A stretch of 64,000 nt of DNA from a virus (IMGVR_UViG_3300028832_000139:3419-67418); one strand, 5' to 3'. Shown: positions 18,031 through 36,305, counted from the stretch's first letter. Made by a program: numbers and translations. The notes: generated by a model from the sequence alone, not told the origin.

Positions 18031-18116
18031 CCTGCGTAAATCACTATATATCAGTGGCAAAATTAGCAAAATATTTGCATTTTCACTAATTTTTGCCTAA
18101 AATTTTAGGTAAAATA

Positions 18117-19698: not shown

Positions 19699-20934
19699 AT
19701 GAAAACTATACCAGTTTCTCTGCGAGACATGATTAACCTCGGTATGTATGGCGAGTCTTGGCAGACATTCGTTGACAAATACGAGGAAAAGTTTAATGCT
19801 ATCACTATTGATGGCTTTGAGTTTGATCCAGTAAGCATTGGTTACACTTGGGCACAGATGCTGTCAAAGGTTGGTGCAACCGTGCTGCCTACTTATGTTG
19901 ATCCTGAGAGCGAGGGTTACGAAATGCCTCTCGGCCAGTTGCAGGGTGCTACAGGTAACGTACCTACGCAAAAGTTGTTCTACTCTGTTAACCGCACTAT
20001 TCTCCGTGAGAAGATGCAGTTGGTACAGAAGTACGGCAATGCCGTTATGGATGACGAAATGCGTGAGGTAATGTTTGGTCTGCTTGACGAGGGTACTGAC
20101 GGACTGATTCAGTCTTTCTGGAACGCTCTGAACCATCAGCGTCATCAGATTGTATCTAAGGGCGAGTTTACTATCAACGCTACCAACAATCCTCGTGGCT
20201 TGAAGGGTATCACTATCGGCTTTAATATGCCTGATGCTAACAAAGACGTGCTGACTGGCTCTGCTCGTTGGTGGACTAACCCAGACCACACTACTGAGGG
20301 TACAAACTCTGATCCCCTTGGCTACTTGGAGAAGCGAGTTAAGACTATCCGCCGCACTTTGCACTATGCAGGCCCGATTAAGATGGAGATTGCCCGTGAC
20401 ACTTGGGATGACTTCTGCGAGCACAGCAAGGTTAAGAGTGTTCTTGCTAATTGGGTATATCGTAACGTATCAAGCGACAGCGCACGTGCTGACATTGGTC
20501 GCTTTATGGATGACGATGTTGTTAAGGAGGCTGTTCGCCGCATTATCAAGGTTGACGAGATTGCTATTCAGGACACCTACGCTTACGTTAGCAAGGTTGG
20601 TACTGATGCCAACGGTCTGCCCGACCTCGTAGAAGATAAGATTGACAACTTCGATCCACAGAACATTGCCTTTGTTCCTACTGGCAAGTTGGGTGGTATT
20701 CAGGGTGTTCAGCCTCTTTCTATGGGTTACGATGCCGATAAGGTGGCTTACGCTATGGGTAATCGTCTGCTTATCGAGCAGGAGGATATGCCTCGCACTC
20801 ACTCTATCAATGTTAATGGCGAAATGGCACAGATTTGTGTTCCTGGCGCTATTATGCACATGTATATCTCTACCATTGCCCCGCATACTGCTGAGGCTTC
20901 AAGTTCTTCTGAGGCTTCAAGTTCAAGCGAGTAA
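19699..20934 (+). CDS. Major capsid protein with C-terminal EASSSSEASSSSE tag
   Basis: 411 aa; head-operon position; major-capsid-E-like motifs (NPLG...I..QD..AY...F.P.GKLG). Confidence 0.85.
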   Translation: MKTIPVSLRDMINLGMYGESWQTFVDKYEEKFNAITIDGFEFDPVSIGYTWAQMLSKVGATVLPTYVDPESEGYEMPLGQLQGATGNVPTQKLFYSVNRTILREKMQLVQKYGNAVMDDEMREVMFGLLDEGTDGLIQSFWNALNHQRHQIVSKGEFTINATNNPRGLKGITIGFNMPDANKDVLTGSARWWTNPDHTTEGTNSDPLGYLEKRVKTIRRTLHYAGPIKMEIARDTWDDFCEHSKVKSVLANWVYRNVSSDSARADIGRFMDDDVVKEAVRRIIKVDEIAIQDTYAYVSKVGTDANGLPDLVEDKIDNFDPQNIAFVPTGKLGGIQGVQPLSMGYDADKVAYAMGNRLLIEQEDMPRTHSINVNGEMAQICVPGAIMHMYISTIAPHTAEASSSSEASSSSE

Positions 20935-22842: not shown

Positions 22843-24186
22843 ATGAGTGACTATAAAATATGGGTATCATATCACAAAGACGAACTTGTGCAGAAGTACG
22901 GCTTGCACGATGACGAAACGCACAAGTTATTCGCTACCCACCATGACGTAGAGGGTAAGAACATCAACGCTCTTAACCCTGTATATTCAGAAATGGTAAC
23001 GATGTACTATGTGTGGAAAAACAACCTTAAAAGCGATTATGTAGGCTTTAACCACTATCGTAGAAAGTTCGATGTTACCAGACTGCCTGAAAAGGGAGAG
23101 TGCCAAATCCTTAGAGTCAATGACTTTGGTTCGGAAACAATTTATCAGCAATACGCAAAGTGCCACAATGTGCGTGACCTTGACACTATGCTGAAACTCC
23201 TTGATGACAAATATGGTGCTGACAATGCTTACACAAAGCATATCAAGGAAAGCCATGTTATGTACTCAAAGTGCTGCTTCTTGATGAAGTGGTCTGACTT
23301 CACAAAGATGTGCAAGTACCTTTTCCAGTTGCTCGATGACTTTGCTTCCGTATGCGGTTGTGTTACTAAAGAGGACTGGCACAAGAAAGCCGAGAAAGAC
23401 TTTGACGATAAGGATGACTATCAGATGCGAGTAGTATCTTTCCTTGCAGAGCGTCTTATCTCTGCTTGGATAGCAACAAATCTCAGTCCGTATATTGATG
23501 GCAGAAATGTTGCGGTGGTACATTACAACACTCCTGAACTTACTGAGGCTGCTATCAAGTCGCTTATGAAGCATACTCACGGATGCCATGTTTATGTGTT
23601 TGACAATAGTGACAAGAAGCCTTTTACTGCTAAGATACCTAATGTGGAGGTTATCGACAATACCAATGGGCAGATTATCGACTTTGAGGCTGAGTTAGCA
23701 AAGTACCCTGACAAGTGGGAACGTGATACCAAAAAGAGCAACTACGGCTCTGCAAAGCATTCAATGAGTGTTGACAAACTGATGGATATTGTGCCAACAG
23801 GCTTTGTGCTGATTGATTCCGATGTTCTTATCAAGGAAGATATAAGCCGTTTCTGGGATAAAAAGGTTTCGTGCCTTGGTGCAGAAGAAGTAAAGCACGA
23901 TGTTCCCCTGCTTATGCCGTTCCTTTGCTATCTCAATGTTCCTATGCTTCGTGAAAAGGGCATCCGCTATTATAATGGCGAAAAGATGTGGGCACTCAGC
24001 AATATCGAGCCTAATCAGCATTACGATACTGGTGCTTGGCTGCTTGAAGAAGCAAGAAGAAATGATCTGCCTATCGAGTATGTCAACATCTGGCAGTATG
24101 TGATACATTTCGGACACGGCTCTTGGAGAGGGAATAAGGCTAAGACGGATAAATGGCTTGAAGAAAACGCAGCATTATGGAGGTAA
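22843..24186 (+). CDS. Two-domain glycosyltransferase (DUF4422 plus GT2-like)
   Basis: N-terminal IWVSYHK...NINALNPVYSEM...DYVGFNHYRR; C-terminal VVHYNTPELT...LIDSDVL (DxD). Confidence 0.8.
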   Translation: MSDYKIWVSYHKDELVQKYGLHDDETHKLFATHHDVEGKNINALNPVYSEMVTMYYVWKNNLKSDYVGFNHYRRKFDVTRLPEKGECQILRVNDFGSETIYQQYAKCHNVRDLDTMLKLLDDKYGADNAYTKHIKESHVMYSKCCFLMKWSDFTKMCKYLFQLLDDFASVCGCVTKEDWHKKAEKDFDDKDDYQMRVVSFLAERLISAWIATNLSPYIDGRNVAVVHYNTPELTEAAIKSLMKHTHGCHVYVFDNSDKKPFTAKIPNVEVIDNTNGQIIDFEAELAKYPDKWERDTKKSNYGSAKHSMSVDKLMDIVPTGFVLIDSDVLIKEDISRFWDKKVSCLGAEEVKHDVPLLMPFLCYLNVPMLREKGIRYYNGEKMWALSNIEPNQHYDTGAWLLEEARRNDLPIEYVNIWQYVIHFGHGSWRGNKAKTDKWLEENAALWR

Positions 24187-25064
24187 AGACGATAGACTAT
24201 GTTGTTCCAATGGTCTTTCACGAAGATACTCTTTGGCAGGAAGATTTCAAGAAAGTAAACCATCAGTATGATGCGCATAACCCTTATGACTTTGTGCGTT
24301 TCAGAAGTTGGAATACTGAGGAAATCCTTATCAAGTGCGTAAAGAGGTTTATGCCTTTTGTGCGTAACATCTTTATTCTCTTGGCGAGAGAGAGCCAAAA
24401 GAAGTCTTGGATGGATGCTGAGGGCGTTCGCATAGTCTATCATCACGATTTTATTCCTGAGAAGTTTTTGCCTACGTTCAATTCGTGCGCTATAGAAATG
24501 TTCCTGCATCTTATTCCAGGCATCAGCGAGCGATTTATCTATGGTAATGACGATATGTTTCCTGTTGCGCCACTAACAGAGCAAGATTTCTTTGAGAACG
24601 AAGTGCCCTGTTTGCATCACGGACAAAAGCCTTTCCCAACCTCACCGAATATCTTTCACGACTCTTGCCGTTGCGGTCAGAACTTTGTCGCAAGGGAGTT
24701 TGGTATGGACTTTAGCGATGTGCTTATTCGTGGCGGTCATAGCCTTACTCCAATGCTGAAAACAACGTGGAACTACCTTTGGCATATCGGTAAAACGGAG
24801 ATAGAGGATAGTGTTAGTCCTTTTAGGGAGCAAAAGAACTTCAACCAATGGCTGTGTCCTTGGTGGCATTACCTATCAGGCAACTATATAGACAGAGTGC
24901 CGAGCAAGGTATATGTCAGCACAAAGAATAGTGTTGAAGAAGTTGTTAAGGCTATAGCCGACTGCAAAGGTATCATCTGCATTAACGATAATGAGTGTGA
25001 AGATGACTATATGAAGTATGGTAATGCGGTAATAAACGCAATAACAAACAAATTAAATAACTAA
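24177..25064 (+). CDS. Stealth-family sugar-1-phosphate transferase
   Basis: CR1 IDYVVPMV; CR2 RF(R)S...MPFVRNIFI...FIP..LPTFNSCAIE..LH.IPGISERFIYGNDDMF; CR3 H..TPM; CR4 ICINDN. Confidence 0.88.
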   Translation: MEVKTIDYVVPMVFHEDTLWQEDFKKVNHQYDAHNPYDFVRFRSWNTEEILIKCVKRFMPFVRNIFILLARESQKKSWMDAEGVRIVYHHDFIPEKFLPTFNSCAIEMFLHLIPGISERFIYGNDDMFPVAPLTEQDFFENEVPCLHHGQKPFPTSPNIFHDSCRCGQNFVAREFGMDFSDVLIRGGHSLTPMLKTTWNYLWHIGKTEIEDSVSPFREQKNFNQWLCPWWHYLSGNYIDRVPSKVYVSTKNSVEEVVKAIADCKGIICINDNECEDDYMKYGNAVINAITNKLNN

Positions 25065-25603: not shown

Positions 25604-26131
25604 ATGAGCCACAATAACGCAAAGATACTGAAAGACGGACTGAAAAAAGGGTATGAGCAGATAGTGAAGTACCTTTATAAGCAAATGTACGATATGTGCG
25701 AGCGTCTTTTAGTTGAAGTGCCTTTGCATCGTCAATACCTTGGCTTTACTGGTAATACGCAGACTTCTTACGCTTGTGGATTGTACGTTGACGGAACACT
25801 TGAAGGCATCGTTACGCAGAAGAATTGGAACTCGCCACCTGTTCATAGGAAAGTGAAGATTGGCGAATGGGTGTATCTACGCAATCCGTATGAAGGTCGT
25901 TCACGAAGTATAAGAGGTACTTCGCAAGTAACTGATAACTTCGGTCTTGACACCTCTATCCGTTTTTTGAGGTCTTTCAATGCAAAGAAGAACACTATAC
26001 AGATAGTTATGACTACTGGTACCGAATATTCGGCATATCTTGAAGCAGCAGCAGGTCTTGATGTGCTTACTGGCACTTATGAGGCTGCCAAAGTGATATT
26101 AGCGCAAGGTTTTAAGCCTATGCAGACGTAA
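25604..26131 (+). CDS. Tail completion protein (HK97 gp10-like)
   Basis: FTGNTQTSY...TGTEYSAYLE...VLT motif; start at ATG 25604. Confidence 0.6.
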   Translation: MSHNNAKILKDGLKKGYEQIVKYLYKQMYDMCERLLVEVPLHRQYLGFTGNTQTSYACGLYVDGTLEGIVTQKNWNSPPVHRKVKIGEWVYLRNPYEGRSRSIRGTSQVTDNFGLDTSIRFLRSFNAKKNTIQIVMTTGTEYSAYLEAAAGLDVLTGTYEAAKVILAQGFKPMQT

Positions 26132-26135
26132 TGAA

Positions 26136-26286
26136 AGAGAGGGGGTAAAAATCCCCCGACTTTTATAACAAGAAGAACCACCAACTTATTACAAATTGCC
26201 CTGCAAAGGTGCGTGTCGGGGGAGTAATTCCTTTAACGCATCCATGCAGGGTTTATTGTATGTCGGTGGTTCTGGGGCACAAAGAT
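26136..26286 (-). ncRNA. Structured ncRNA with pseudoknot potential
   Basis: Nested stems AGAACCACC/GGTGGTTCT and CCCTGCA/TGCAGGG; loop complementary to TCCCCCGAC; minus-strand TATCTTTG promoter at about 26279-26286. Confidence 0.55.
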
Positions 26287-26310
26287 AGTAATTAAAATCG
26301 AAATGCGCAA

Positions 26311-26538
26311 ATGAAAGTCGGGGATTTATTGAAAATAGGTGTCGAAATGTTGAAAATACTGCATGAAAACGGCATCAGTATAGACGATTATAAGTATATT
26401 CCTTTGTTCTTGGAATATCAGGCTATGAAAGAACAGGGGGAAAAGACTACTTATGTTGTAGCCATTCTTTCCGAGAGGTATAACTTGTGTGAAAGAAAGG
26501 TTTATAAGGTGCTACAAGCCTTTTTGAAAGACTGCTAA
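26311..26538 (+). CDS. Small HTH regulator heading the Cys-rich cassette
   Basis: C-terminal LSERYNLCERKVYKVL HTH-like segment. Confidence 0.6.
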   Translation: MKVGDLLKIGVEMLKILHENGISIDDYKYIPLFLEYQAMKEQGEKTTYVVAILSERYNLCERKVYKVLQAFLKDC

Positions 26539-26657
26539 TTTGGTGCAGTCGGCATATTTGAAATTGCTTGTGTTTAGCGGTTTTGTTTCCTACTTTTGTC
26601 TATGTCAAAGCGCAATGACAAGGTAACATAGTATTAACTCATTAAACACAAAAGATT

Positions 26658-27143
26658 ATGGCATTAGATTCAAATGACCTCGCAATGCTGCATGGTATGG
26701 GCTTTTCTCCCTATGAACAGGTAAAGATTGGCTATATGCAGAACAAAAAAGCCAGTGGCACTTCTATAGGTGCCCTTGCAACAGCCGTAGGTGCTGGTGT
26801 ACTCGCTATCGGTGGTGCCGCCTGGGCTGCATCCAGAGCACAGAACGCAAAAGATGTTGCTATCGCCAAGAATGATGGTTTGAAGGATTTGGTTCAGACA
26901 CTTGCAGGCACTCTTGCTGCCGAGCGTGGTGAGCGTATTGCTGGCGACCTGAACATTACGAACACCATCAACGACACTGTTAGTGGCTCTCAGCAAGGCT
27001 CACTTTCTCAGTCTCAGCAGCTTTCTAACGAGCTGACCTTTGGTCTTATGACAGGACGCTACTCTGAGAATCCACAGCGTGTAGCCCTTTATCAAGATGC
27101 CAAGCCTTGTGCTTGTCCTTGCTCTTGTGGCTGTAACGGTTAA
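26658..27143 (+). CDS. Gly/Ala-rich hydrophobic-helix protein ending CACPCSCGCNG
   Basis: Own promoter TACTTTTG at 26591; followed by a perfect palindrome. Confidence 0.75.
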   Translation: MALDSNDLAMLHGMGFSPYEQVKIGYMQNKKASGTSIGALATAVGAGVLAIGGAAWAASRAQNAKDVAIAKNDGLKDLVQTLAGTLAAERGERIAGDLNITNTINDTVSGSQQGSLSQSQQLSNELTFGLMTGRYSENPQRVALYQDAKPCACPCSCGCNG

Positions 27144-27150
27144 AGTTTGG

Positions 27151-27182
27151 TTTTGATCCCGAAACGGATTTCGGGATCAAAA
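27151..27182. terminator. Perfect 14-bp inverted repeat
   Basis: TTTTGATCCCGAAA-CGGA-TTTCGGGATCAAAA. Confidence 0.7.
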
Positions 27183-27237
27183 TCTTTCCAGTGTTTAAAG
27201 AATTGGAAAGAAATGGAAAGAACTAACACGGCAAGTT

Positions 27238-27594
27238 ATGTGGTTCATAAGTAAAGAAAGGAAAAAGAAGATGGAGTTTATACAGAACTTTGTACCGACA
27301 AGTAAGGCACAACTACTACAGGTCGCTATGTATCTCAATGGTGGCGATATTAAGAAAGCTCAGGAGTTTGTGGATTTCTATGCAAAGAATCTCGAACTGC
27401 CAGACTTTGATCCTATTGCACCTACTTTGATGCAACAACTGAAAAGCGGTGCATCGGGCTTTTTCTCTTGGGTAAAAGAAAACCAAAGCGACCTTGTGCA
27501 AGGCTACCAACTTATTCAGGGTATCATCCAAAATAAGGGTGTGTTGCCTATCACTCCATCAGCGAGCGAACCACTACCAAGTATTAACGATTAA
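27238..27594 (+). CDS. Hypothetical protein (cassette)
   Basis: Operonic ORF. Confidence 0.7.
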   Translation: MWFISKERKKKMEFIQNFVPTSKAQLLQVAMYLNGGDIKKAQEFVDFYAKNLELPDFDPIAPTLMQQLKSGASGFFSWVKENQSDLVQGYQLIQGIIQNKGVLPITPSASEPLPSIND

Positions 27595-27605
27595 AACACG
27601 GCATT

Positions 27606-27809
27606 ATGGAAGTAAGAAAAATATCGTTCAACATCTACGCAAGTAGTGACGAAGAAGCAGAACGTGGCTGTAAGGCTATCAAGCAGTTTATAGATATAAT
27701 CGGTCAGCATGGCGCAATGGTGTCTGGCAACAAGATAGCCGATGCAGTGAGCAAATTGCCTGAGAATAGTTTTGTTCTCTCGCAGATAATCAAGTTTTTC
27801 AAGGAGTAA
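27606..27809 (+). CDS. Hypothetical protein (cassette)
   Basis: Operonic ORF. Confidence 0.7.
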   Translation: MEVRKISFNIYASSDEEAERGCKAIKQFIDIIGQHGAMVSGNKIADAVSKLPENSFVLSQIIKFFKE

Positions 27810-27860
27810 CGTCACTGATTAGAGAGTAGTTAGAGAGTATTATTAAGTTCATAATAAGTT

Positions 27861-28130
27861 ATGGAAGAAAATAAGTTTAAGTGTTCTGGCGATTGCCTTA
27901 ATTGCCACCCAAGCCAAAGAGCCTATTGTGCAGCTCAGTTTACATATAACTCTATGCGTATGATAGAGGATATGAAAGGTTCTATCTCTGAACTCAAAGA
28001 GAAGATAGATGCTATGCAGAATAGGGAAGCAAACGTGTTTAACCCGTCAGGAGAAAATTCGGAAATTCCGAAATTACCCATAGCGCAAAGTGGGGATGGC
28101 GCAGAAAATAGAAGCCCCGAAACAATTTAA
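27861..28130 (+). CDS. Cys-motif plus coiled-coil protein (cassette)
   Basis: CSGDCLNC...YC followed by a heptad segment. Confidence 0.7.
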   Translation: MEENKFKCSGDCLNCHPSQRAYCAAQFTYNSMRMIEDMKGSISELKEKIDAMQNREANVFNPSGENSEIPKLPIAQSGDGAENRSPETI

Positions 28131-28141
28131 CTCAAAGTATT

Positions 28142-28582
28142 ATGTGTAACAACGGAAAAACAATCGTGGAGTATCTTACTCCTGTGCCAGGAGGTACGGC
28201 AGCAAACGCCACCTACCTATTGGCTCTCGACCACTTCACTTGTGGTAACAAGAAATTATGTGTAACGGATGCCTACCTCGTGTCGGCTGACGTTAAGTTT
28301 ACTCCTATCAGCTCTCCTGTGAGCGTAGGTAATGGCAGTTTTTGTCAGGAAGTACAGGTTAGCGGAACAGTCACCTATATGCCGTTCAAGTGTGGCTGCC
28401 AGTGCGGTGTCTGCCCTGTAACGGAGAACATCTACACCACCTTCTGTGTACCTTGCTCGTCAGCAGTAAGTCCTACACTAACAATAGGTGAGGCTGTAGC
28501 CAGTCCTACAAACGTACAGCCTTGCAGTAACGTGACTAACGCTATCGCTATCACTACAAGCATAAACGTAGCAACGGCATGA
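28142..28582 (+). CDS. Cys-rich beta-strand protein (cassette)
   Basis: 11 Cys including CGCQCGVC; 146 aa. Confidence 0.75.
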   Translation: MCNNGKTIVEYLTPVPGGTAANATYLLALDHFTCGNKKLCVTDAYLVSADVKFTPISSPVSVGNGSFCQEVQVSGTVTYMPFKCGCQCGVCPVTENIYTTFCVPCSSAVSPTLTIGEAVASPTNVQPCSNVTNAIAITTSINVATA

Positions 28583-28920
28583 ACTGGATAGATATTGCGT
28601 GTATAGTGTTCGTGTGTGTTACGGCTAACCACCTCGGACTGATTAAGGCCGTAGAAAGCGTGATAAGATGTCACGACTTGCCAATCGTCAGCTGCCCAAA
28701 GTGCTTAACTTTCTGGTGTACGTTAGCATACGACTTGTGGTGTGTCGGCTTTTCCGACATACCACTAATACTCGCAGTATCTTTCCTCGCAAGCTATCTC
28801 GCTATATGGCTTGAATTATTTGAAGGATATATTGACACTTTATATGATAGGTTCTATGAGAAGATTTATCCAACAACAGAGAACGAGAAACATACCGACG
28901 GCACCATGCCCGACGTGTGA
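28579..28920 (+). CDS. Membrane protein with CPKC motif (cassette)
   Basis: Hydrophobic segments; SCPKCLTFW. Confidence 0.7.
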   Translation: MNWIDIACIVFVCVTANHLGLIKAVESVIRCHDLPIVSCPKCLTFWCTLAYDLWCVGFSDIPLILAVSFLASYLAIWLELFEGYIDTLYDRFYEKIYPTTENEKHTDGTMPDV

Positions 28921-28946
28921 TAATAGTAACTTAAAAGTTAATAACA

Positions 28947-29429
28947 ATGAACGCAGAAGAATTAAAAAGTAAGTACGAGTCGCTGTATAAGTATATGGCG
29001 AACTCTAACGAGCCAGACAATATGAAAGCGTTTGGCAAAGTAATGACTGAAATGTTTATGTGGTATGCAGACAATAAGCCTGATGCCGCAAGTGAATGGT
29101 TAGATAAGTTGTCCGCTATTATGTGGAAGAACTATCTCACGCCAAAGGAGGCTGATGTCATCGTGGCTGCAATGAAGCCAGAAGCACCTTGGAACAGGGA
29201 ACAATGGAGAGGTGCAATGGAGAAACACGGCTTTGTTATGGATGAAGAACCATACTACAACCGATGCGCTCTGTATGCTACTATGAATATGATTATGTCA
29301 GATAGTAGCGCAACACTATCAAAGTATGTCAATGGCGAGGAAATGTTCAAGGTCGTTCACGATCTCGCTGTGGATAAGCTCAAAGACGCAGACGGAAAGT
29401 TTAGCATTAGAGCCTACTTTGGACTATGA
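28947..29429 (+). CDS. Helical hypothetical protein (cassette)
   Basis: 160 aa; W..EQW...YYN..ALY..MNMI.SD. Confidence 0.7.
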   Translation: MNAEELKSKYESLYKYMANSNEPDNMKAFGKVMTEMFMWYADNKPDAASEWLDKLSAIMWKNYLTPKEADVIVAAMKPEAPWNREQWRGAMEKHGFVMDEEPYYNRCALYATMNMIMSDSSATLSKYVNGEEMFKVVHDLAVDKLKDADGKFSIRAYFGL

Positions 29430-29671
29430 GTTATCGAGCCTTGATGCGTAGGAAACTCCTTGAACAGATATACGATAAGATGTCTGATGAAGAAAAACGG
29501 CTTTTTGTATATCGCTCTATGGAAGATAAAAACCATACTGAGATAATGAAAGAGTTGGAAAGCATCAAACGAGGTCAGTCATTTTGGATTGATTTAGGCT
29601 CAAATGTAGCGGGCAATGCTTTATTTGATGGGATAGCGTACCTATTTTCAAGGCTCATAAAGCGTTTTTAA
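29426..29671 (+). CDS. Small protein with C-terminal hydrophobic helix (cassette)
   Basis: SFWIDLGSNVAGNALFDGIAYLFSRL. Confidence 0.7.
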   Translation: MSYRALMRRKLLEQIYDKMSDEEKRLFVYRSMEDKNHTEIMKELESIKRGQSFWIDLGSNVAGNALFDGIAYLFSRLIKRF

Positions 29672-29724
29672 CCACCATGTGCCGTGTTGGTTAAAGGGGA
29701 GAGCGTAATGCCCTCCCCTATCTT

Positions 29725-29922
29725 CTATTCTACAACATCAAGCATTTCGTTGAAGAACATGATTGGCTGTACTACCTTTTCTGTTATCTCAGGACTTGCC
29801 TCAAAGTTTTTTGCGCAATCAGTAGCAAGAAAAATGGCTGAACGTGCAATTAGGCTAATCAAATCTTCTCTTGTTAAGTCTTTGGCTGCCAAAAACTCGT
29901 CAATGTTTTTGTACTTTTTCAT
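29725..29922 (-). CDS. Hypothetical protein (moron)
   Basis: Own minus-strand promoter CAAAAGTA at 30007-30014. Confidence 0.55.
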   Translation of the reverse strand: MKKYKNIDEFLAAKDLTREDLISLIARSAIFLATDCAKNFEASPEITEKVVQPIMFFNEMLDVVE

Positions 29923-30068
29923 AATCTTTTAATTTTTAGTTATTTGCTTTCTTGTCGGGTATAGGTCTATTGGTAGAAAATTCCTTAAAATATATAAATA
30001 TTTCAGCAAAAGTACAACAACTTATCAAAATGATTGCTATATTTGCAAAAACATTAAAACATGGTATT

Positions 30069-30593
30069 ATGAAGAAGATAGTATTACTTATTGTGTTTAT
30101 GGCATTTATGCTGAATACTGGCGCACAAAATGTTATGGGTATCAATATTGGTACCACAATGAAATCCTTTAACGTGCAGATGAAGAAAAAAGGCTACGCA
30201 CCTTATAAAACCACCCTTGGAAAGTATGAATATAAGGTTGTGTTTGCGGGCTATCCTGATGCAAACTTTATGGTAGAATACAATACTGATACGGATTCTA
30301 TAAATGGCATCGAGATAATCTTTAGGCACGAGAGTTATGAGCAAGACAAGAAAATCTATCACGATATTAAAGAACAACTGATAGCGAAATACGGCACTCC
30401 ATCGTATGAATTTGAAAAATACAATGCTGATTTAAGCCCTAACATATTAGTCAGAATGACTTATCGTGATGTTTCATTCCATAGCAACCCATATCTTGTT
30501 TGGGATTTTGGAAACGAAAACAATGTAAAACTCAAATATCAAACAACGGCATCAAGGAAAGTTAAGAAGAAAGCATTTAGTAATGATTTATAA
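30069..30593 (+). CDS. Secreted/periplasmic protein (moron)
   Basis: Signal peptide MKKIVLLIVFMAFMLNTGAQ; promoter TATATTTG at 30038-30045. Confidence 0.7.
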   Translation: MKKIVLLIVFMAFMLNTGAQNVMGINIGTTMKSFNVQMKKKGYAPYKTTLGKYEYKVVFAGYPDANFMVEYNTDTDSINGIEIIFRHESYEQDKKIYHDIKEQLIAKYGTPSYEFEKYNADLSPNILVRMTYRDVSFHSNPYLVWDFGNENNVKLKYQTTASRKVKKKAFSNDL

Positions 30594-30652: not shown

Positions 30653-30724
30653 TATATTTGCAGCGATAATTGCAATTATTAACAACAAGCCATAGAGAGC
30701 TGCCCTTCTGGGTGGCTCTTTTTT
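30653..30724 (+). promoter_or_regulatory. Tape-measure promoter and attenuator-like leader hairpin
   Basis: TATATTTG at 30653; AAGCCA-TAGAGAGCTGCCC...GGGTGGCTCT-TTTTT. Confidence 0.6.
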
Positions 30725-30746
30725 GGTTTTTATTTGGGATAACGTT

Positions 30747-33700
30747 ATGGCAGGTAATCTTGGTACGCTGTGGTTTGGTGCTGATATTGACCTAACAGCA
30801 TTAAAACAAAAAATACAAAGTGGCAATCAGAGTATTCTTGATGCTCTAAAGATAAGTTACGATCCTCAAAGTTACCAACAAATGGTAACAAGACTGAGGA
30901 CACAACTTTCAAAAGAAACATTTGAGGTGAAACTGACTGCAAACACGCAGAATGTGGTAAACAATATCCAAAACGCTACTAAATCAGGAACGTTTAGGAA
31001 TACTGGAATTGACGAACTGAATGAAAAGATAAAAGTTCAAACGCAGTATGTAAATAATCTTGAAGCCAGATTAAAGTCACTTGCTGTTACCTATTCTCAG
31101 TTAAAGAATAACGGACAACTCTTGCAAGCAAGTAGTTATAAAAATCAAATAGCGAGTGTTAGTCGTGAACTTATTGGCGAAAGACAAACATTAAAGGATT
31201 TTATAGCGGAACGTGCTTCTTTGCGTAATTCTTCAAATGATGCTTTGCTTCAACTAAAGAGAGAGAGAGCAGAGCGCAAGGCATTAGGAGAGGAAGAACG
31301 CAGGTCAGTTGCTCAAAGAAGAAAAGAGGTAAACCAACTGACAAGCGACCATTTGAGAATGAATGCAACTATTGCGGGTGGCATCCACGTTTCAACGCAA
31401 TTAGGAAGTGCATTGTCTTCTGTTTTTGCAATACACTATGCTCGCCAGTTTTTAGACAATGTTATTGAGATTGGCGGTCAGTTGGAAAAACAGCGTATCA
31501 GTATTGCCGCTATTCTTGGCGATGCCTTAAAAGCAACACACCTGTTTGAGCAGATTAAGGACTTGGCTCTTAAATCTCCATTTGGTGTTGTCGAACTCGA
31601 CCAATATACTAAGCAACTTGCCGCTTACGGATTTAAGCAGAACGAGTTGTTTGATATGACAAAGCGACTTGCTGATATTTCGGCTGGTGCAGGTCAGGAT
31701 ATTGGCAGATTAACATTAGCATTAGGTCACGTTAGAAGTGCTACATACCTTACGGGTATTACACTTCGTCAGTTCTCTATGAACAACATACCTATGTTGA
31801 AGATGCTTGCCGACTACTATTCAGAGGTAGAGAAAAAGGCTGTATCTACTGCCGATGTTCAAAAGCGTATTTCTAAGCGTCAGGTAAGTTATCAAGATGT
31901 TATTGAACAGATACGCAGGCTGACTGACGAGGGAGGTATGTTTTACAATATGCAAGAGAAGATTTCAGAGTCACTTGCTGCAAAGTACAAGAATTTGAAA
32001 GATGCTCTTGATATTATGTATGGCGAGATTGCTGAGAGTAATATAGGCGATGCGATGAAGAATACTGCCGAGGTTTTACTAAAAACTACAAGGCATTGGA
32101 AAGAGATTGCGGCAGCCGTAAGTATTGCTGCTGCTGCTTTTCTTGTTGGTAAAATGAGAATTGGCGTAGAAACACTTGCGCTGCAAGGCAATACTGCTGC
32201 AACATTAAAGAATATATCAGCAAGCAAGCAAATTACTGCAAACAAACTGAGAGCTGCTGCTGCTTATAGGTCGTTAACAAATCAGGAACGCATACAGATA
32301 GCATCTTCAAATAGCCTTACTGCTGCCGACTTACGTTTGGCTATGGCAGACAAAACGCTGAATAAGGAAGATGTATTGCGTCTTGTAGCCTTAAAGAAAA
32401 TTAAGATAGCTCAGGCGATGCACCTTGTAGGTGTAAACGGAATTACTGCTGCTGAGATTAAGGCTGCTGCTGCCACAAAGGCATGGAGAGTGCAGTTGGC
32501 TGGCATCGGTATGTCGCTAAAGAACGCTTTTCGTGGTGTCGGTGCTGGTACGTGGGGTACATTGGCAATGATGGTTGGTGCTGAACTTTATATGGCATGG
32601 GATCAGTGGAACAGCAGAATAGACGAGAAAGCAAATGAAATGAAAGATTTGGCTAAGTCGCATATTACCGACTTACAAAAGATGCAGAAGTCTATCCTTA
32701 CTAACGGAAAGCCAAAAGATAATACCTCTATGAAGAATACCATTACTGAAATGAAGCAAGTTTTGGCTAATTCGGAGGCATATACTAAGACACTTGACGA
32801 GCAACTGAGTAAGACTTCTTCTCTTCCAAAGCAATACGAAATACTAAAAGGTGCTATTGACGATGCAGTAGAGGAAAGCCGCAAAATGCTTGATGTTCAA
32901 GATAGAGCAGCAGAACTTATCAAAGCAAGTAAGAGTGATTTTTCTTGGTGGGATGTCACTAAGATGGGTTTATTATCCCCTACTGCCACCAAGAATGTGT
33001 GGAACCAGGTATTTAATGATGATGTAAAGACTAATATTGACGATGTTAATAACGCTTACAAGTCACTTCGTAAGACGCTTGATAGCCTATACGAATACAA
33101 AGAGCCGTTAAAGGAACTAATAGAGAGTATTAAGAACTCAGATATTAGCGAGGACTTAAAAGAGCAACTTGAAAAAGCACCATTTGAGGAACAATTAAGA
33201 ATACTCGCAGAAAATGGCTATTGGAAAGAAATAGAAAACAAATTAAAAGGTGTTGGAAAAGCATTTGGAAATAGCGAAACTGAGGTTAAGAACGTTTGCG
33301 AAAAATTAAAAGGCTCTTTGGATGGAGTTAAAGAGGAATGGGGAGAAATATATGGCGATGACATTCCAAAGATGTATGAGAAGATGCTTGCTGAGTTTGA
33401 TGGCGATGAAAAGAAACTGAAGCAATGGGTGTTTAATAACATTGACGATGTTCGCAACCTTCTTGACGGTATATTAGACCAAATTGGCGAGAAAGAGCCA
33501 CAGATTAGAAAATATTTTAAGCGAATGTATCTTAACTATGTTCGTTTTGCCGACCTGATGAAAACTGAGGAAGGTGCTGCACTTGCCGAGGGTGCTACTA
33601 TTGGCGCAACTCTCTTTGATAAATCAATGATGGATAAGTTGAATAAAGAAAAAGAACTTGCAAACTTAGACGATGATGGCTCTGGTGCAAAAAACGACAA

Positions 33701-36305
33701 GAAAGGCAAAGACAAGGAGTTAGAGGCTGCAAGAACAAAGTTAGAGCAGTATAAGGCTTTCTTGTCTGAATACAAGAAGTTTAGGGAAATGTATAGCAAG
33801 GAAGCCGCTATTACTAAGTTGGAGAGCCTATTCCCTGACCTGAAAGATAAAAAAGGGAAGTTCCTTGGTGGCAAACTCGTTGACAATTACATCGAAATGC
33901 TTGATAAACTGAAATCCTCTCTTAAACTGACTACTGATGCTCGCAAGAAGTGGGCTAACGATGTAGATAAGACGAAATCAGATACCACTTTCGATAGAGA
34001 GAAAGAGGCAATGAAAGAGAACGCTGATGCTATGCAAGAATATATGAAGCGTATTGAAAATCAATGGAAACAATATCGCTCACTCTTGCAGAAGTCAGGT
34101 GGTAATCGTAATATTGCGTCTATGGCTTTCAACGACAAAGGGGAGATTTGGGATGAAACAGCAAAAAAGATGCTTGAACGCTTCAACCAACGAGGTAATG
34201 AATTAGGCGTAGTTCCTATCAAGTTCCGTTGGGATATGAGCGAGAAAGAACTGAAAGATGCGCTTGTTGACTCCAAAGGACAAATTCAGGAAGAACTGGT
34301 TAAGGCTGCATTAGAGATACAATCAGTAATTCGTGGAAACTATGTTCAGTTTGTCGAAGATGTAGCATCTGCTTATGAGAAATCTCTTACTGAGGCTCAG
34401 AAACTTGTAGAGTTAGAGCGTCAGCGTCAGGAATTATTAGACAAAAAGGCTAACGACAACGACCAATCTGCAGAGCAGCAAGCAAAGCACGATATTCTTA
34501 TTGCTGCAATGGATAACGAGATTGCAAAGCAGCGTTGGGCTGCATTTAAGGACACAGAAGAGTGGGTACGCATCTTTGGAAACCTTGATAAAGTTAGCAA
34601 ACAGAGCCTTGTAAGTATGCGTGAACAGTTGCTTGCCGTTCTACCGTCTATCAATGAGAACGTAGAAGCTACAAAGGCTTTGTATGAGGCTTTGGAGAAG
34701 TTAGACAAAGCGATTAACGAGCGTAGCCCATTTGAGGCAATGGGTAATGCGATAAAGAGGTCTTCGCAAATTAGCAAGTTGTTAAAGACTGGACTTACGG
34801 ACAATGGCTTTAGAGATGCAAATGGAAACTATATTGTTGGAGAAGAAAATGCGAGAAAGTTAGGTCTAAAGGTCAAAAAAAGCGGAAAATACACAAAGAA
34901 AGACTTAAAAGATGCTGATAAGGGTGCAAAGGTTGATTTTAATGAGGGAATGCAATCTCTATCAAACACTTTCAGCCAACTTGCACAAGCAGCACAACCA
35001 CTTATAGATATATTTGATGCTCTCGGCATGACTGAGGTAGGTCAGGTAATGAGTGGTGCGCAAGATGCACTTAGTTCTGCAATGGCTGGTGGTTTTTTAT
35101 TCGGGCCTTGGGGTGCTGCAATAGCAGGGGGGCTTAGTGTAGTTTCTTCTGTATTAGGTGGTATAATTGGAAACCATGACGAGGCGCTTGAAGAAAAAAT
35201 AAAAGCCTCTAAGCAACGTGTAAAACTGATTGATAACCTGTCAGATACCTTTGAAAGAGCACTTGAAAAAGTGTTAGGCGGTGTGTATGGCTATAAAGAC
35301 TCGGAAACCACCTCTAAGTTCAAAACGCAAAGTGATGAATACTTGAAAAGGTATAATGAGGCAGAAGAGGCGAAAGAAAGAATAAAGAAAGGCGGAGAAA
35401 TTCTATTCGATTATCAAAAAATAAGTCGAAACTATACAAGCGATAAAACCTACGATGCTATCAAGCAGGCACAAGCCTCTGGAGAGTATTACGACCAACA
35501 GCGAGCATTACTTATGATGCAGCGTGACGAAGCAGCAAAGCAGTTGCGTGACGAGCAGAGTAAGAAAGACTCAGACGGCAACGCTATTGACGAGTACAAG
35601 CAGCAGATTGAGGAACTGAACGAGCAGATAAAGAGCTTTGCTCTTGATATGGCAAATACTTTATACGACATCGACCTCAAATCGTGGGCACAGGAGTTTG
35701 GCGATGCTATTGTTACTGCATGGGAGAATGGTGAGGATGCAGCAGAAGCCTACTCAAAGAGCGTTAAGAGCGTGATGAAGAACCTCGCTAAGAACCTCTT
35801 GCAGCAAAAGATTATTGAGGCTGCTTTCAAAGCATCTGACATAGAGGATATGATTGTAAAAATGATGGACGTGTCAAGTGGTAAGCTGGACTATAGCAAT
35901 GTCGAGCGACTTTCCGCAGCATTTATGACTATGAGTGATAATGTTACGGAAATGTACACCGCCGTACTTGACGAACTCTACAAGAAAGGTGTTATCGACA
36001 AGGGAGAGAGTAATGGCGGTCTTTCAAGCACCATCCAAGGTGTTACTGAGAGTACGGCTGATCTGCTCGCAAGTTACATCAATGCAATGCGTCTTGATTT
36101 GAGTGTAAACAGGAATATGATAGCACAATATTATCCTCAGTTCTTAGGCGCACTTTCTCAGGGTAATACAATAGCCAATGCTCAGTTGGCACAACTTCAA
36201 ATGGTTGTAGCGAACACAAACCGAAACGCTAATGCAGCGCAAGATATTTATGACATTCTTCACGCTGTAATGTTAGGTCAAAAGTCTTTGAAAACTAAGG
36301 TATAA
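30747..36305 (+). CDS. Tape measure protein
   Basis: About 1850 aa, helical; SPFGVVEL..YTKQLAAYGF tape-measure motif; start ATG 30747. Confidence 0.92.
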   Translation: MAGNLGTLWFGADIDLTALKQKIQSGNQSILDALKISYDPQSYQQMVTRLRTQLSKETFEVKLTANTQNVVNNIQNATKSGTFRNTGIDELNEKIKVQTQYVNNLEARLKSLAVTYSQLKNNGQLLQASSYKNQIASVSRELIGERQTLKDFIAERASLRNSSNDALLQLKRERAERKALGEEERRSVAQRRKEVNQLTSDHLRMNATIAGGIHVSTQLGSALSSVFAIHYARQFLDNVIEIGGQLEKQRISIAAILGDALKATHLFEQIKDLALKSPFGVVELDQYTKQLAAYGFKQNELFDMTKRLADISAGAGQDIGRLTLALGHVRSATYLTGITLRQFSMNNIPMLKMLADYYSEVEKKAVSTADVQKRISKRQVSYQDVIEQIRRLTDEGGMFYNMQEKISESLAAKYKNLKDALDIMYGEIAESNIGDAMKNTAEVLLKTTRHWKEIAAAVSIAAAAFLVGKMRIGVETLALQGNTAATLKNISASKQITANKLRAAAAYRSLTNQERIQIASSNSLTAADLRLAMADKTLNKEDVLRLVALKKIKIAQAMHLVGVNGITAAEIKAAAATKAWRVQLAGIGMSLKNAFRGVGAGTWGTLAMMVGAELYMAWDQWNSRIDEKANEMKDLAKSHITDLQKMQKSILTNGKPKDNTSMKNTITEMKQVLANSEAYTKTLDEQLSKTSSLPKQYEILKGAIDDAVEESRKMLDVQDRAAELIKASKSDFSWWDVTKMGLLSPTATKNVWNQVFNDDVKTNIDDVNNAYKSLRKTLDSLYEYKEPLKELIESIKNSDISEDLKEQLEKAPFEEQLRILAENGYWKEIENKLKGVGKAFGNSETEVKNVCEKLKGSLDGVKEEWGEIYGDDIPKMYEKMLAEFDGDEKKLKQWVFNNIDDVRNLLDGILDQIGEKEPQIRKYFKRMYLNYVRFADLMKTEEGAALAEGATIGATLFDKSMMDKLNKEKELANLDDDGSGAKNDKKGKDKELEAARTKLEQYKAFLSEYKKFREMYSKEAAITKLESLFPDLKDKKGKFLGGKLVDNYIEMLDKLKSSLKLTTDARKKWANDVDKTKSDTTFDREKEAMKENADAMQEYMKRIENQWKQYRSLLQKSGGNRNIASMAFNDKGEIWDETAKKMLERFNQRGNELGVVPIKFRWDMSEKELKDALVDSKGQIQEELVKAALEIQSVIRGNYVQFVEDVASAYEKSLTEAQKLVELERQRQELLDKKANDNDQSAEQQAKHDILIAAMDNEIAKQRWAAFKDTEEWVRIFGNLDKVSKQSLVSMREQLLAVLPSINENVEATKALYEALEKLDKAINERSPFEAMGNAIKRSSQISKLLKTGLTDNGFRDANGNYIVGEENARKLGLKVKKSGKYTKKDLKDADKGAKVDFNEGMQSLSNTFSQLAQAAQPLIDIFDALGMTEVGQVMSGAQDALSSAMAGGFLFGPWGAAIAGGLSVVSSVLGGIIGNHDEALEEKIKASKQRVKLIDNLSDTFERALEKVLGGVYGYKDSETTSKFKTQSDEYLKRYNEAEEAKERIKKGGEILFDYQKISRNYTSDKTYDAIKQAQASGEYYDQQRALLMMQRDEAAKQLRDEQSKKDSDGNAIDEYKQQIEELNEQIKSFALDMANTLYDIDLKSWAQEFGDAIVTAWENGEDAAEAYSKSVKSVMKNLAKNLLQQKIIEAAFKASDIEDMIVKMMDVSSGKLDYSNVERLSAAFMTMSDNVTEMYTAVLDELYKKGVIDKGESNGGLSSTIQGVTESTADLLASYINAMRLDLSVNRNMIAQYYPQFLGALSQGNTIANAQLAQLQMVVANTNRNANAAQDIYDILHAVMLGQKSLKTKV

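What the first reader, a model, noticed from the sequence alone, without database searches (positions are those of the whole stretch)
26311..29671. Self-contained 9-gene Cys-rich cassette of unknown function inserted between tail genes
Seen: an HTH gene followed by an own-promoter operon (TACTTTTG at 26591) of eight unknown proteins. They include a Gly/Ala hydrophobic-helix protein ending CACPCSCGCNG, a CxxxCxxC plus coiled-coil protein, an 11-Cys beta protein with CGCQCGVC, and membrane proteins with CPKC. A strong palindrome follows the first gene, implying it is the abundant subunit. None looks like a standard phage structural gene. Inference: a multi-subunit metal-binding or disulfide-crosslinked, membrane-associated assembly. 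It is reminiscent of Cys-rich spore-coat/exosporium proteins and may protect virion or lysogen against oxygen or metal stress outside the gut.
Basis: partly seen in the sequence, partly recalled or inferred. Interest (0 to 1): 0.72.

Follow-up and report, generated by a model that had tools for sequence, protein, structure and literature searches.

The report
Cysteine-rich accessory operon of Prevotella phages
A separately regulated block of eight small cysteine-rich and membrane proteins is real, widespread and moves between Prevotella and Bacteroides phages. The phage does not need it to build its particle, and it matches nothing of known function, so its role is still a guess.

Summary
c1 (HTH) plus c2-c9 are real genes, kept in the same order in more than 15 viral contigs, in Prevotella prophages and in the cultured Bacteroides phage BS162P1.

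The block is a discrete 3.6-kb insert at a cargo hot spot between a tail gene and the tape-measure gene. Related phages have this site empty, filled with other cargo, or holding a decayed remnant.

It is built as a regulatory "head" followed by an eight-gene cargo:
- The head is a structured RNA-like element, c1, a host-type promoter and a start-site palindrome.
- The same head drives an unrelated cargo in other phages.
- A hairpin after c2 is conserved in shape but not in sequence in every relative, which marks c2 as the over-expressed lead subunit.

Only c8 matches any protein family (DUF7841, function unknown). Confident models of c6 and c8 have no clear fold relatives.

Best reading (inferred): an inner-membrane complex led by c2 and stapled by metal-thiolate or disulfide bonds, made independently of virion genes and serving an accessory role, probably in phage-phage or phage-host conflict. 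It is not a virion part, not the lysis module and not a spore-coat relative.

This scan has met the same cassette on other DNA several times without resolving its function.

The parts
26136..26286 (-). Structured RNA-like element at the left edge of the insert. It has a terminator hairpin (26141-26157), a CCCCCGAC box, a three-tier hairpin with an apical GTCGGGGG box, and ends at a minus-strand -7 box. The strand is inferred from that promoter.
   Evidence: The same architecture is present upstream of c1 in all 11 loci aligned. The boxes are conserved and the stem sequences differ between loci. No Rfam match.
26280..26311 (-). Bacteroidetes-type promoter-like site (TTTG-N-TAnnTTTG) pointing leftwards and overlapping the c1 start.
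   Evidence: Pattern match. Its -7 box (GCAAAGnTA on the + strand) is conserved in relatives.
26311..26538 (+). c1, a 75-aa helix-turn-helix protein and candidate regulator of the cargo promoter.
   Evidence: phrog_17790 at 2.6e-22, function unknown. Conserved upstream of both type-A and type-B cargos. PDB profile hits are not significant; the best regulator hit is phage Mu Mor at E=1.8.
26591..26598 (+). -7 promoter box TACTTTTG of the c2-c9 operon.
   Evidence: Sequence read directly. TAnnTTTG is conserved at this place in 10 of 10 relatives.
26603..26620 (+). Palindrome TGTCAAAGCGCAATGACA at the expected transcription start. It is either an operator for c1 or a 5'-terminal mRNA hairpin.
   Evidence: TGTCA-N6-8-TGACA is conserved 3-5 nt after the -7 box in 9 of 10 relatives. 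L019 has a compensated variant, TGGTT...AACCA.
26658..27143 (+). c2, the 161-aa lead protein. It has a conserved SPYEQ N-tail, one Gly-zipper membrane helix, a helical/coiled region, a Q-rich stretch and a C-terminal PCxCPxxGCGCNG tail.
   Evidence: Alignment of 15 homologues. Hydropathy. At least 2047 clusters at 90% identity, all unnamed. Homologous to BS162P1 gene 00095, hhalign probability 99.7.
27151..27182 (+). Perfect hairpin with 14-nt arms after c2: an attenuator or mRNA-end stabiliser that sets c2 apart from c3-c9.
   Evidence: A hairpin is present after c2 in every relative, with unrelated sequence, and also in BS162P1.
27226..27233 (+). ACACGGCA motif, copy 1, just before the c3 start.
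   Evidence: Conserved at the same place in 7 relatives.
27238..27594 (+). c3, a 118-aa protein with no hydrophobic helix detected. Conserved PTSKAQL and LPDFDP motifs and an EPLPxINE end.
   Evidence: Alignment of 14 homologues, mean identity 59%. No family match.
27596..27603 (+). ACACGGCA motif, copy 2, just before the c4 start.
27606..27809 (+). c4, a 67-aa small protein.
   Evidence: Conserved in 13 loci. No family match.
27861..28130 (+). c5, an 89-aa protein with an invariant Cx3Cx2Cx7C cluster followed by a region read as helical.
   Evidence: Alignment. No Radical_SAM or other Pfam match.
28142..28582 (+). c6, a 146-aa protein with 11 Cys, predicted as a beta sandwich, usually with 1-3 Cys in the first 8 residues.
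   Evidence: Alignment. AF2 pLDDT 85. No clear fold relative: Foldseek found nothing and the best VIA Z was 5.1. The family has 60 clusters at 50% identity among 1.84 billion proteins.
28579..28920 (+). c7, a 113-aa protein with about three hydrophobic helices (two detected by the scan, the third read from the alignment). It has an invariant NCPKC-type CxxC plus invariant D5, H18, E26, E79 and D86. Its start overlaps the c6 stop.
   Evidence: Alignment. At least 1377 clusters at 90% identity. DUF1360 is only a weak lead: Atlas cluster share 10%, Pfam E=4.4.
28947..29429 (+). c8, a 160-aa all-helical DUF7841 protein and the most conserved member.
   Evidence: PF25223 at 1.6e-12, above the cut-off. 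Mean identity 64%. AF2 pLDDT 91. No fold relative.
29426..29671 (+). c9, an 81-aa protein with a conserved C-terminal hydrophobic/amphipathic helix. It overlaps the c8 stop. It is missing in BS162P1 and shortened in L013 and L015.
29680..29687 (-). ACACGGCA motif, copy 3, inverted, inside a CCAnCA...TGTTGG hairpin right after c9. It could pair with copies 1 and 2 on the mRNA.
29695..29719 (+). Terminator-like hairpin (AGGGGAGAGC / GCCCTCCCCT, then a T-rich run). It corresponds to the ancestral terminator after the tail gene and marks the right edge of the insert.
   Evidence: I9. Comparison with the empty-site relative L038.

Best explanation
SHOWN. The block is a mobile accessory insert of about 3.6 kb (about 26135-29694) that can be lost.
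- It sits at a cargo hot spot between tail gene 25604-26131 and the tape-measure gene.
- It has two layers. The first is a regulatory head: structured RNA-like element, c1 HTH, host-type TAnnTTTG promoter, start-site palindrome and conserved leader. This head also drives non-homologous cargo in other phages.
- The second layer is an eight-gene cargo of fixed order.
- c2 is separated from c3-c9 by a hairpin conserved in structure only.

INFERRED.
- c2, made in excess, inserts in the host inner membrane through its glycine-zipper helix.
- c2 self-associates into a helical stalk whose C-terminal CxCxxxGCGC tail is held by metal-thiolate or disulfide links.
- c7 (a CxxC membrane protein), c9 (C-terminal anchor) and the proteins lacking signal peptides or membrane helices, namely c3, c4, c5 (4-Cys), c6 (Cys-rich beta sandwich) and c8, are lower-copy partners or assembly factors of the same complex.
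- The operon is transcribed by host RNA polymerase independently of the virion late genes and is gated by c1 and/or the antisense RNA.
- The complex acts in the infected or lysogenic cell. Its most likely role is an envelope-level function in conflict between phages or between phage and host, such as superinfection exclusion. It is not part of the particle.
For: Mobility and dispensability:
- Relatives with the same tail genes have the tail gene followed by the tape-measure gene within 130-520 nt (L037, L059, L056, L057). Others carry different cargo (L038, L040, L042) or a remnant with frameshifted c8 plus c9 (L044).
- The window's right-hand terminator matches the empty-site terminator of L038.
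- Elsewhere the block follows the endolysin and DUF6808 genes (L019, L024) or lies near integrase homologues (L007, L013, L022, L023).

Separate regulation:
- The TAnnTTTG box, palindrome and leader are conserved.
- Terminators lie on both sides.
- The same head sits in front of type-B cargo, which shows no detectable homology to c2, c6 or c8.

Lead subunit: the hairpin after c2 is conserved in shape in 15 loci and in BS162P1. c2 also occurs alone (L010, L011) or displaced (L007, L012).

Membrane and Cys chemistry:
- Hydrophobic helices were detected in c2 and c7. The c9 helix is read from its sequence.
- Invariant Cys occur in c5, c6, c7 and the c2 tail.
- Cys content is twice that of the rest of the phage.
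- Several Cys positions that are invariant among the Prevotella-phage c6 proteins are lost in the BS162P1 homologue, which has Cys elsewhere. This fits stapling or thiolate clusters better than one fixed catalytic site.

Not lysis: the window has its own candidate holins (42648-43178, 43187-43453), a GH19 endolysin (45704-46273) and a DUF6808 membrane protein.

Lysogen carriage:
- The phage has an integrase and an S24 repressor-like gene.
- DUF7841 is present in 22 of 301 genomes of the host genus, some on megabase contigs.
Against: - No protein-protein contact, membrane insertion, metal content or expression has been measured. The complex is inferred only from co-inheritance and sequence features.
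- c2 topology is undecided: flanking charges favour N-in only weakly. So the Cys tail could be periplasmic or cytoplasmic.
- No PADLOC hit supports a defence role.
- An eight-gene fixed operon is far larger than the superinfection-exclusion systems I know of (from memory, not tested here).
- The palindrome half-sites stay the same while the c1 recognition helix varies, so c1 may not be its binder.
- Sub-blocks occur apart: c6-c9 without c2-c5 in L013, and c2 alone in L010. The members therefore need not all form one complex.
Confidence: 0.4

Rival explanations
1. Virion-associated or virion-protecting material. The Cys-rich proteins would coat, decorate or embed particles, or form a cross-linked matrix released at lysis that hardens on contact with oxygen.
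For: - The block sits inside the tail module in this genome.
- It is rich in Cys.
- Cys-richness without strict positional conservation is typical of cross-linked matrix proteins (established knowledge of spore-coat and keratin-associated proteins).
- The alternative cargo at the same site is Gly/Tyr-rich, the other classic matrix composition.
Against: - It has its own host-type promoter and flanking terminators rather than late-gene signals.
- Phages with the same tail genes lack it.
- Its position varies: after the lysis genes, beside the integrase, and among small hypothetical genes in BS162P1.
- No similarity to any structural phage family or spore-coat family.
Confidence: 0.1
2. A lysis-timing module. 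c2 would be a class-III-holin-like or spanin-like single-pass protein, and c3-c9 would be antiholin-like partners that set or delay lysis.
For: - c2 has a short N-tail, one membrane helix and a roughly 100-aa C-terminal domain with Cys. This layout resembles T4 holin T and i-spanins (recalled from established knowledge, not tested here).
- In L019 and L024 the block directly follows the endolysin and DUF6808 genes.
Against: - The window already has holin candidates, an endolysin and a DUF6808 membrane protein together 12-17 kb away.
- The block is absent from close relatives, which must still lyse.
- It carries its own early or host-type promoter.
Confidence: 0.1
3. A redox- or metal-sensing regulatory device. 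c5 (4-Cys), c6 and c7 would sense oxygen or metal and signal through c1 and the RNA to the lysis-lysogeny decision of a strict anaerobe's phage.
For: - The invariant Cx3Cx2C...C of c5 resembles the H/CxxxCxxC zinc motif of redox-sensitive anti-sigma factors and 4-Cys Fe-S sensors (resemblance recalled, not tested).
- The cassette carries a dedicated HTH, an antisense-RNA-like element and a palindrome.
- The phage is temperate.
Against: - The same head drives a Cys-poor type-B cargo, so regulator and cargo are not a matched sensor pair.
- The lead gene is set up for high expression, which fits a structural product better than a sensor.
- No family match for c5.
Confidence: 0.1
4. An anti-defence or defence island. 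The genes would be small proteins that counter, or provide, host immunity under an Aca-like HTH autoregulator, and would not form one complex.
For: - The site is a hot spot with alternative, non-homologous cargos behind one conserved regulator and promoter.
- A strong promoter with an inverted repeat at the start site resembles acr-aca operons (recalled knowledge).
- Distribution is patchy and remnants exist.
Against: - Gene order and content are fixed across 30-79% identity, unlike the shuffled content of the anti-defence islands I know of (from memory).
- Three members appear to be membrane proteins.
- No PADLOC match.
Confidence: 0.15

Closest known systems
Pfam DUF7841 (PF25223)
   Same: c8 matches above the curated cut-off (1.6e-12, 48 bits against a cut-off of 25.2).
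   Different: The family has no known function or structure, and no paper in the library mentions it. It covers one of the eight cargo proteins only.
Genes BS162P1_00095-00101 of Bacteroides phage BS162P1 (OP172706.1), a cultured phage of B. salyersiae
   Same: - A run of seven genes with matching sizes.
- c2 is homologous (hhalign probability 99.7), as are c6 (probability 93), c7 (39% identity) and c8 (28% identity).
- There is a hairpin after the lead gene.
   Different: - All genes are annotated 'hypothetical'.
- The regulator is different, and c9, the ACACGGCA motifs and the TGTCA palindrome are absent.
- The c2 homologue has a CCC triplet.
- The c6 homologue lacks several Cys that are invariant among the Prevotella-phage proteins.
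'Type-B' gut-phage cassette (Gly-rich CCC lead protein, small beta protein, RGG/YGG protein, HExxH protein), known only from earlier notes of this scan and seen here in L058
   Same: - Same insertion site.
- Same regulatory head: RNA element, c1 homologue, promoter, palindrome and leader.
- Same plan of a membrane or Gly-rich lead protein followed by small partners.
   Different: No detectable homology between its lead, beta or 148-aa proteins and c2, c6 or c8 (this compared a single sequence with a profile, a weak test). It is Cys-poor apart from the CCC triplet.
Self-regulated accessory operons inside phage late regions (P22 immI with its antisense sar RNA; acr-aca operons)
   Same: A self-contained unit with a small HTH, an inverted repeat at a strong promoter and an antisense-RNA-like element, lodged among tail genes. 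This is a resemblance from established knowledge.
   Different: The cargo is eight membrane or Cys-rich proteins of fixed order, not an antirepressor or anti-CRISPR genes. No homology was found.
Cys-rich spore-coat or exosporium proteins and DUF1360 / CryBP1 families of Bacillota
   Same: High Cys content. Language-model neighbours include one cluster where 13% of members carry CryBP1 (for c6) and one where 10% carry DUF1360 (for c7).
   Different: - No significant sequence match: c6 gave none at E<=10 and c7 against DUF1360 gave E=4.4.
- No spore-protein fold match.
- The hosts are non-sporulating Prevotella and Bacteroides.

Membership tests
DUF7841 (PF25223) | Match to the Pfam model above its gathering score | tested here: met
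   c8 scores 48.1 bits against a cut-off of 25.2, E=1.6e-12.
Spore-coat / exosporium / endospore-appendage proteins (CotY/ExsY, CryBP1 PF07029, Ena-type jellyrolls) | Sequence match of the Cys-rich beta protein to one of these families | tested here: not met
   None of the 14 c6 homologues matched any Pfam family at E<=10. The PDB profile search was empty at E<=1.
Spore-coat / exosporium / endospore-appendage proteins | Shared fold with a solved spore-surface protein | tested here: inconclusive
   Foldseek PDB found nothing at E<=0.001. The best VIA-align wide hits were Z 5.1 and lower, to HSP20/CS-type sandwiches, with no spore protein among the top 50.
Spore-coat / exosporium / endospore-appendage proteins | Carried by or acting in spore-forming hosts | tested here: not met
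   Prophage copies lie in Prevotella and Bacteroidales genomes. The cultured carrier infects Bacteroides salyersiae.
DUF1360 (PF07098) membrane proteins | Match to the Pfam model | tested here: not met
   c7 gave E=4.4, 7.8 bits against a cut-off of 21, and only 1 of 14 members matched. The only other hint is an Atlas cluster where 10% of members carry the family.
Radical SAM enzymes (CxxxCxxC) | Radical_SAM domain around the Cys triad, typically more than 200 aa | tested here: not met
   c5 is 89 aa and has no Pfam or NCBIfam match. The motif alone is shared.
Phage lysis cassette (holin / endolysin / spanin) | Adjacency to, and co-transcription with, the endolysin; the only membrane-lesion candidates in the genome | tested here: not met
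   The GH19 endolysin is at 45704-46273, with separate TM proteins at 42648-43453 and 46270-46794. The cassette is absent from relatives with the same tail genes. It is adjacent to the lysis genes only in L019 and L024.
Known anti-phage defence systems (PADLOC-DB) | Match of any member to a defence-system protein model | tested here: not met
   Only two chance-level hits were found, at E=0.014 and 0.043.
Tail assembly chaperones (G/GT), which normally occupy this position | Required between the tail tube and tape-measure genes; conserved with the tail genes | tested here: not met
   In L003, homologues of window genes 12538-13011 and 13032-13340 sit in the tail module ahead of the cassette. 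Empty-site relatives run from the tail gene straight to the tape-measure gene without c1-c9.
Zinc-binding anti-sigma (ZAS) / 4-Cys Fe-S sensor proteins | H/CxxxCxxC within an anti-sigma helical bundle that binds a sigma or regulator; bound Zn or Fe-S | not testable with these tools
   Only the Cys spacing of c5 resembles the motif. No family match. Metal content and c1 binding need experiments.

The most novel reading that the evidence does not exclude
The cargo would build a previously undescribed phage-encoded supramolecular structure in strictly anaerobic hosts.
- It would be a membrane-anchored array of c2 stalks whose Cys-rich tips, with c5, c6 and c7, form a thiolate-metal or oxygen-triggered disulfide lattice.
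- The Cys-rich type-A cargo and the Gly/Tyr-rich type-B cargo would be two alternative 'matrix' chemistries plugged into one mobile expression platform (antisense RNA, HTH, promoter).
- Such a structure could harden or seal the envelope of the infected or lysogenic cell, or shield progeny, when the cell meets oxygen or a competing phage.
Probability: 0.15. Interest if true: 0.85.

Novelty: categorically new. Interest (0 to 1): 0.6.

Why it matters
- The c2 and c7 families each number in the thousands of 90%-identity clusters, and about 7% of sampled genomes of the host genus carry the DUF7841 member. Yet no member has a name, a structure or a paper.
- Prevotella and Bacteroides dominate rumen and gut communities. 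An eight-gene, separately regulated membrane and Cys-rich system carried by their phages is a sizeable blind spot in phage-host biology.
- This work narrows it in three ways. It shows that the block is dispensable cargo at a defined hot spot. It separates a reusable regulatory head from the cargo. It identifies a cultured phage-host pair (BS162P1 and B. salyersiae BSC162) in which deletion, expression, localisation and metal analysis can be done directly.

Tried and rejected
Family and sequence searches:
- Pfam, PHROGs, NCBIfam and PADLOC on all nine proteins returned only DUF7841 (c8) and phrog_17790 (c1).
- Pfam on every member of the c6 and c7 alignments at E<=10 gave nothing usable.
- PDB sequence-profile searches for c1, c2, c6 and c8 gave nothing significant.

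Structure:
- AF2 models of c6 (pLDDT 85) and c8 (pLDDT 91) were searched with Foldseek PDB, Foldseek BFVD (c6 only) and VIA-align wide.
- The best Z was 5.1 (HSP20/CS-like sandwich) for c6. For c8 it was 5.4, over a 45-residue helical hairpin only.
- I reject any fold assignment from these results.

Other searches:
- A search for fused or longer forms of c8 found none.
- blastn of the whole block against GenBank phages found no match.
- Rfam on the block found no real match.
- RNAalifold on a MAFFT alignment of the upstream element recovered only the CCCC/GGGG pairing, because the stems are not alignable by sequence. Per-sequence folds were used instead.
- Literature: 'DUF7841' and 'BS162P1' returned no papers. 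'DUF1360' returned two papers with no functional information.

Ideas dropped:
- A lysis role, because a separate lysis module exists.
- A tail-chaperone role, because of the empty-site relatives.
- A radical-SAM reading of c5, because it is too short and has no such domain.
- Homology between type-A and type-B cargo.

Full report
CONTEXT

The window is almost all of a 67.4-kb IMG/VR virus record, estimated complete. It is a tailed, temperate phage:
- terminase at 16276-18069 and major capsid at 19699-20934;
- two sugar-transfer genes at 22843-25064;
- tape-measure gene at 30723-36305 and a 1903-aa tail protein after it;
- GH19 endolysin at 45704-46273 with DUF6808 and holin-like membrane proteins nearby;
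- an integrase at 63025-63999 and an S24 repressor-like gene at 61728-62375.

Prophage copies of the cassette lie in Prevotella sp. tc2-28 and in rumen Prevotella and Bacteroidales MAGs.

THE OBSERVATION

All nine ORFs are present as described. I call them c1 to c9.
- c2 has one Gly/Ala-rich hydrophobic helix and ends CACPCSCGCNG.
- c5 has Cx3Cx2Cx7C, with all four Cys invariant.
- c6 has 11 Cys. c7 carries CPKC. c9 has a C-terminal hydrophobic helix.
- Cys makes up 3.07% of cassette residues against 1.42% elsewhere in the window.
- The -7 box TACTTTTG (26591-26598) and the perfect 14-nt-arm hairpin after c2 (27151-27182) are there.

The genes are real. c1-c9 recur in the same order at 30-79% protein identity in more than 15 viral contigs. 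The c2 and c7 families each have more than a thousand 90%-identity clusters, all unnamed. The c6 family is smaller, with 60 clusters at 50% identity among 1.84 billion proteins.

A DISCRETE, DISPENSABLE INSERT

A profile of the tail gene just upstream (25604-26131) retrieved 75 related loci. Their content downstream of that gene varies:
- In L037, L059, L056 and L057 the tail gene is followed by the tape-measure gene within 130-520 nt.
- In L038, L040 and L042 about 2 kb of other cargo lies there. It includes a 65-aa minus-strand gene that the window also has, at 29725-29922.
- In L044 only a frameshifted c8 plus c9 remain.
- In L058, L050, L041 and L051 a c1 homologue is followed by different genes.

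Comparing the junctions shows that the window's right-hand terminator (29695-29719) is the ancestral terminator of the tail gene. The insert is therefore about 26135-29694.

In other phages the same block follows the endolysin and DUF6808 genes (L019, L024) or lies near integrase homologues (L007, L013, L022, L023). It is not a tail-assembly component.

TWO LAYERS: A REGULATORY HEAD AND A CARGO

Upstream of c1 every locus has the same architecture:
- a terminator;
- a CCCCCGAC box;
- a roughly 100-nt three-tier hairpin whose stems differ in sequence between loci;
- an apical GTCGGGGG box that can pair with the first box;
- a conserved minus-strand -7 box overlapping the c1 start.

After c1 come a TAnnTTTG box, then 3-5 nt later a TGTCA-N6-8-TGACA palindrome (compensated to TGGTT...AACCA in L019), and then a conserved GGTAAC...AGTATTAAC leader.

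The identical head precedes a different cargo in L058. That cargo is a 309-aa Gly-rich lead protein with a CCC triplet, a 114-aa beta-type protein, an RGG/YGG-rich protein and an HExxH protein. It has no detectable homology to c2, c6 or c8.

So c1 and the RNA element form a reusable expression platform. The Cys-rich genes c2-c9 are one of at least two cargos.

SIGNALS WITHIN THE CARGO

Every relative, including BS162P1, has a strong hairpin right after c2, with unrelated sequence in each. This is the signature of selection on structure. It fits an attenuator or 3'-end stabiliser that makes c2 the abundant product.

The motif ACACGGCA occurs just before the c3 start, just before the c4 start, and inverted right after c9. 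The window has 6 copies against 1.1 expected. The same three places are occupied in seven relatives. On one mRNA the 3' copy could pair with either leader. I could not test this.

Sub-blocks can separate. c2 is alone next to a tape-measure-like gene in L010 and L011. c2 lies after c8 in L007 and L012. L013 has c6-c9 without c2-c5.

WHAT THE PROTEINS ARE

Only c8 belongs to a catalogued family, DUF7841. c1 matches a PHROG of unknown function. NCBIfam and PADLOC give nothing.

The c6 model (pLDDT 85, nine strands) and the c8 model (pLDDT 91, all helical) have no convincing relatives in PDB or BFVD. The best Z values are 5.1 and 5.4, and the second covers only a helical hairpin.

Language-model neighbours hint at CryBP1 for c6 and DUF1360 for c7. 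In each case the family is carried by only 10-13% of one cluster's members, and direct HMM tests fail.

c7 has invariant D5, H18, E26, C39, C42, E79 and D86. By the positive-inside rule its CxxC loop would face the cytoplasm, but the evidence is weak. c2 topology is not decided by charge. None of c3, c4, c5, c6 or c8 has a signal peptide or membrane helix.

In the BS162P1 homologue of c6, several Cys that are invariant among the Prevotella-phage proteins are replaced, while other Cys appear. This suggests that Cys density matters more than a fixed ligand set.

MECHANISM

What is shown:
- The block is a mobile, self-regulated accessory operon.
- It has a lead membrane protein set up for higher expression, plus seven co-inherited small partners.
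- It is separate from both the virion late signals and the lysis module.

What I infer:
- c2 forms a homo-oligomeric, membrane-anchored helical stalk through its glycine zipper.
- Its CxCxxxGCGC tail is stapled by metal-thiolate or disulfide links. CGC-type tails are known Ni/Zn binders in HypB and SlyD (recalled from established knowledge).
- c7 and c9 are membrane partners.
- c5 and c6 are Cys-rich partners, and c3, c4 and c8 are further cytoplasmic-side partners, or all five are assembly factors.

Why I favour a conflict-related envelope function, such as exclusion of other phages:
- hot-spot behaviour with alternative cargos;
- patchy presence and decay remnants;
- carriage in lysogens (22 of 301 genomes of the host genus against 1 of 301 across the phylum sample).

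My confidence is about 0.4 in the overall reading and lower for the specific role. The rivals are a virion-protecting matrix, lysis timing, a redox sensor and an anti-defence island. They are listed with their tests.

COMPARISON WITH WHAT IS KNOWN, AND NOVELTY

The nearest things are uncharacterised: DUF7841, the BS162P1 gene run 00095-00101 and the type-B cassette.

In design the unit resembles self-regulated accessory operons lodged in late regions, such as P22 immI and acr-aca operons. It is not homologous to them.

No paper mentions DUF7841 or BS162P1.

The same cassette has been noted many times by this scan on other DNA, and earlier follow-ups also left its function open.

- the exact insert boundaries and the empty sites;
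- the separation of head from cargo;
- the structurally conserved post-c2 hairpin;
- the triple ACACGGCA motif;
- models of c6 and c8 that found no fold relative;
- a cultured carrier in which to test it all.

Noticed in passing
window 26136-26311 (also L003-L019, L041, L050, L051, L058 upstream of c1): A conserved structured element with a CCCCCGAC box, a three-tier hairpin whose stems covary, an apical GTCGGGGG box and a minus-strand -7 promoter overlapping the c1 start. It travels with c1 whatever the cargo. It looks like a roughly 130-nt antisense or divergent small RNA with a possible pseudoknot/terminator alternative. There is no Rfam match.
   Followed up: partly
window 27226-27233 (+), 27596-27603 (+), 29680-29687 (-): The ACACGGCA(A) motif sits just before the c3 and c4 start codons and, inverted, just after c9. 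The same three places are occupied in seven relatives, and the window has 6 copies against 1.1 expected. It may be a long-range mRNA pairing or a protein-binding site. It is absent from BS162P1.
   Followed up: partly
window 29725-30593: Two further cargo genes lie between the cassette and the tape-measure gene. One is a 65-aa minus-strand gene (29725-29922), also found right after the tail gene in L038. The other is a gene for a protein with a signal-peptide-like N-terminus (from ATG 30070 to 30593) with what looks like its own TAnnTTTG-type box (TATATTTG near 30040). The site is a multi-cargo hot spot.
   Followed up: partly
L058:7715-10990 (also L050, L041): A 'type-B' cargo sits behind a homologous c1 and an identical head. 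It comprises a 309-aa Gly-rich lead protein with a QQCCCENK motif and a Gly/Tyr-rich end, a 114-aa beta-type protein, a 75-aa RGG/YGG-rich protein and a 154-aa HExxH protein.
   Followed up: partly
L044:4716-5198: A c8 homologue is split by a frameshift (50-aa and 88-aa pieces) and is followed by an intact c9, with c1-c7 missing. This is a decaying remnant of the cassette at the same site.
   Followed up: no
L010:3904-10364: In a GC-richer phage, c2 stands alone between a reverse-transcriptase-like gene with an upstream 703-aa tail-fibre-like gene (a possible diversity-generating retroelement) and a 1165-aa tape-measure-like gene with long internal repeats.
   Followed up: no
L006 and L017 (= L054, L053), downstream of c9: The tape-measure homologue lies on the opposite strand downstream of the cassette. 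This implies an inversion or a different module order in these relatives.
   Followed up: no
window 53228-53578 (-) and 53028-53957 (-): A DUF7666 protein has a collagen-like repeat region. The overlapping frame reads as a perfect VQAVTLLRL repeat, which reflects a tandem DNA repeat.
   Followed up: no
G443:C1:48712-49089 and 64964-65299; G460:C60; G537: Some genomes of the host genus carry two or three DUF7841 genes, two of them 16-20 kb apart on one contig. This may be two cassette types in one element.
   Followed up: no
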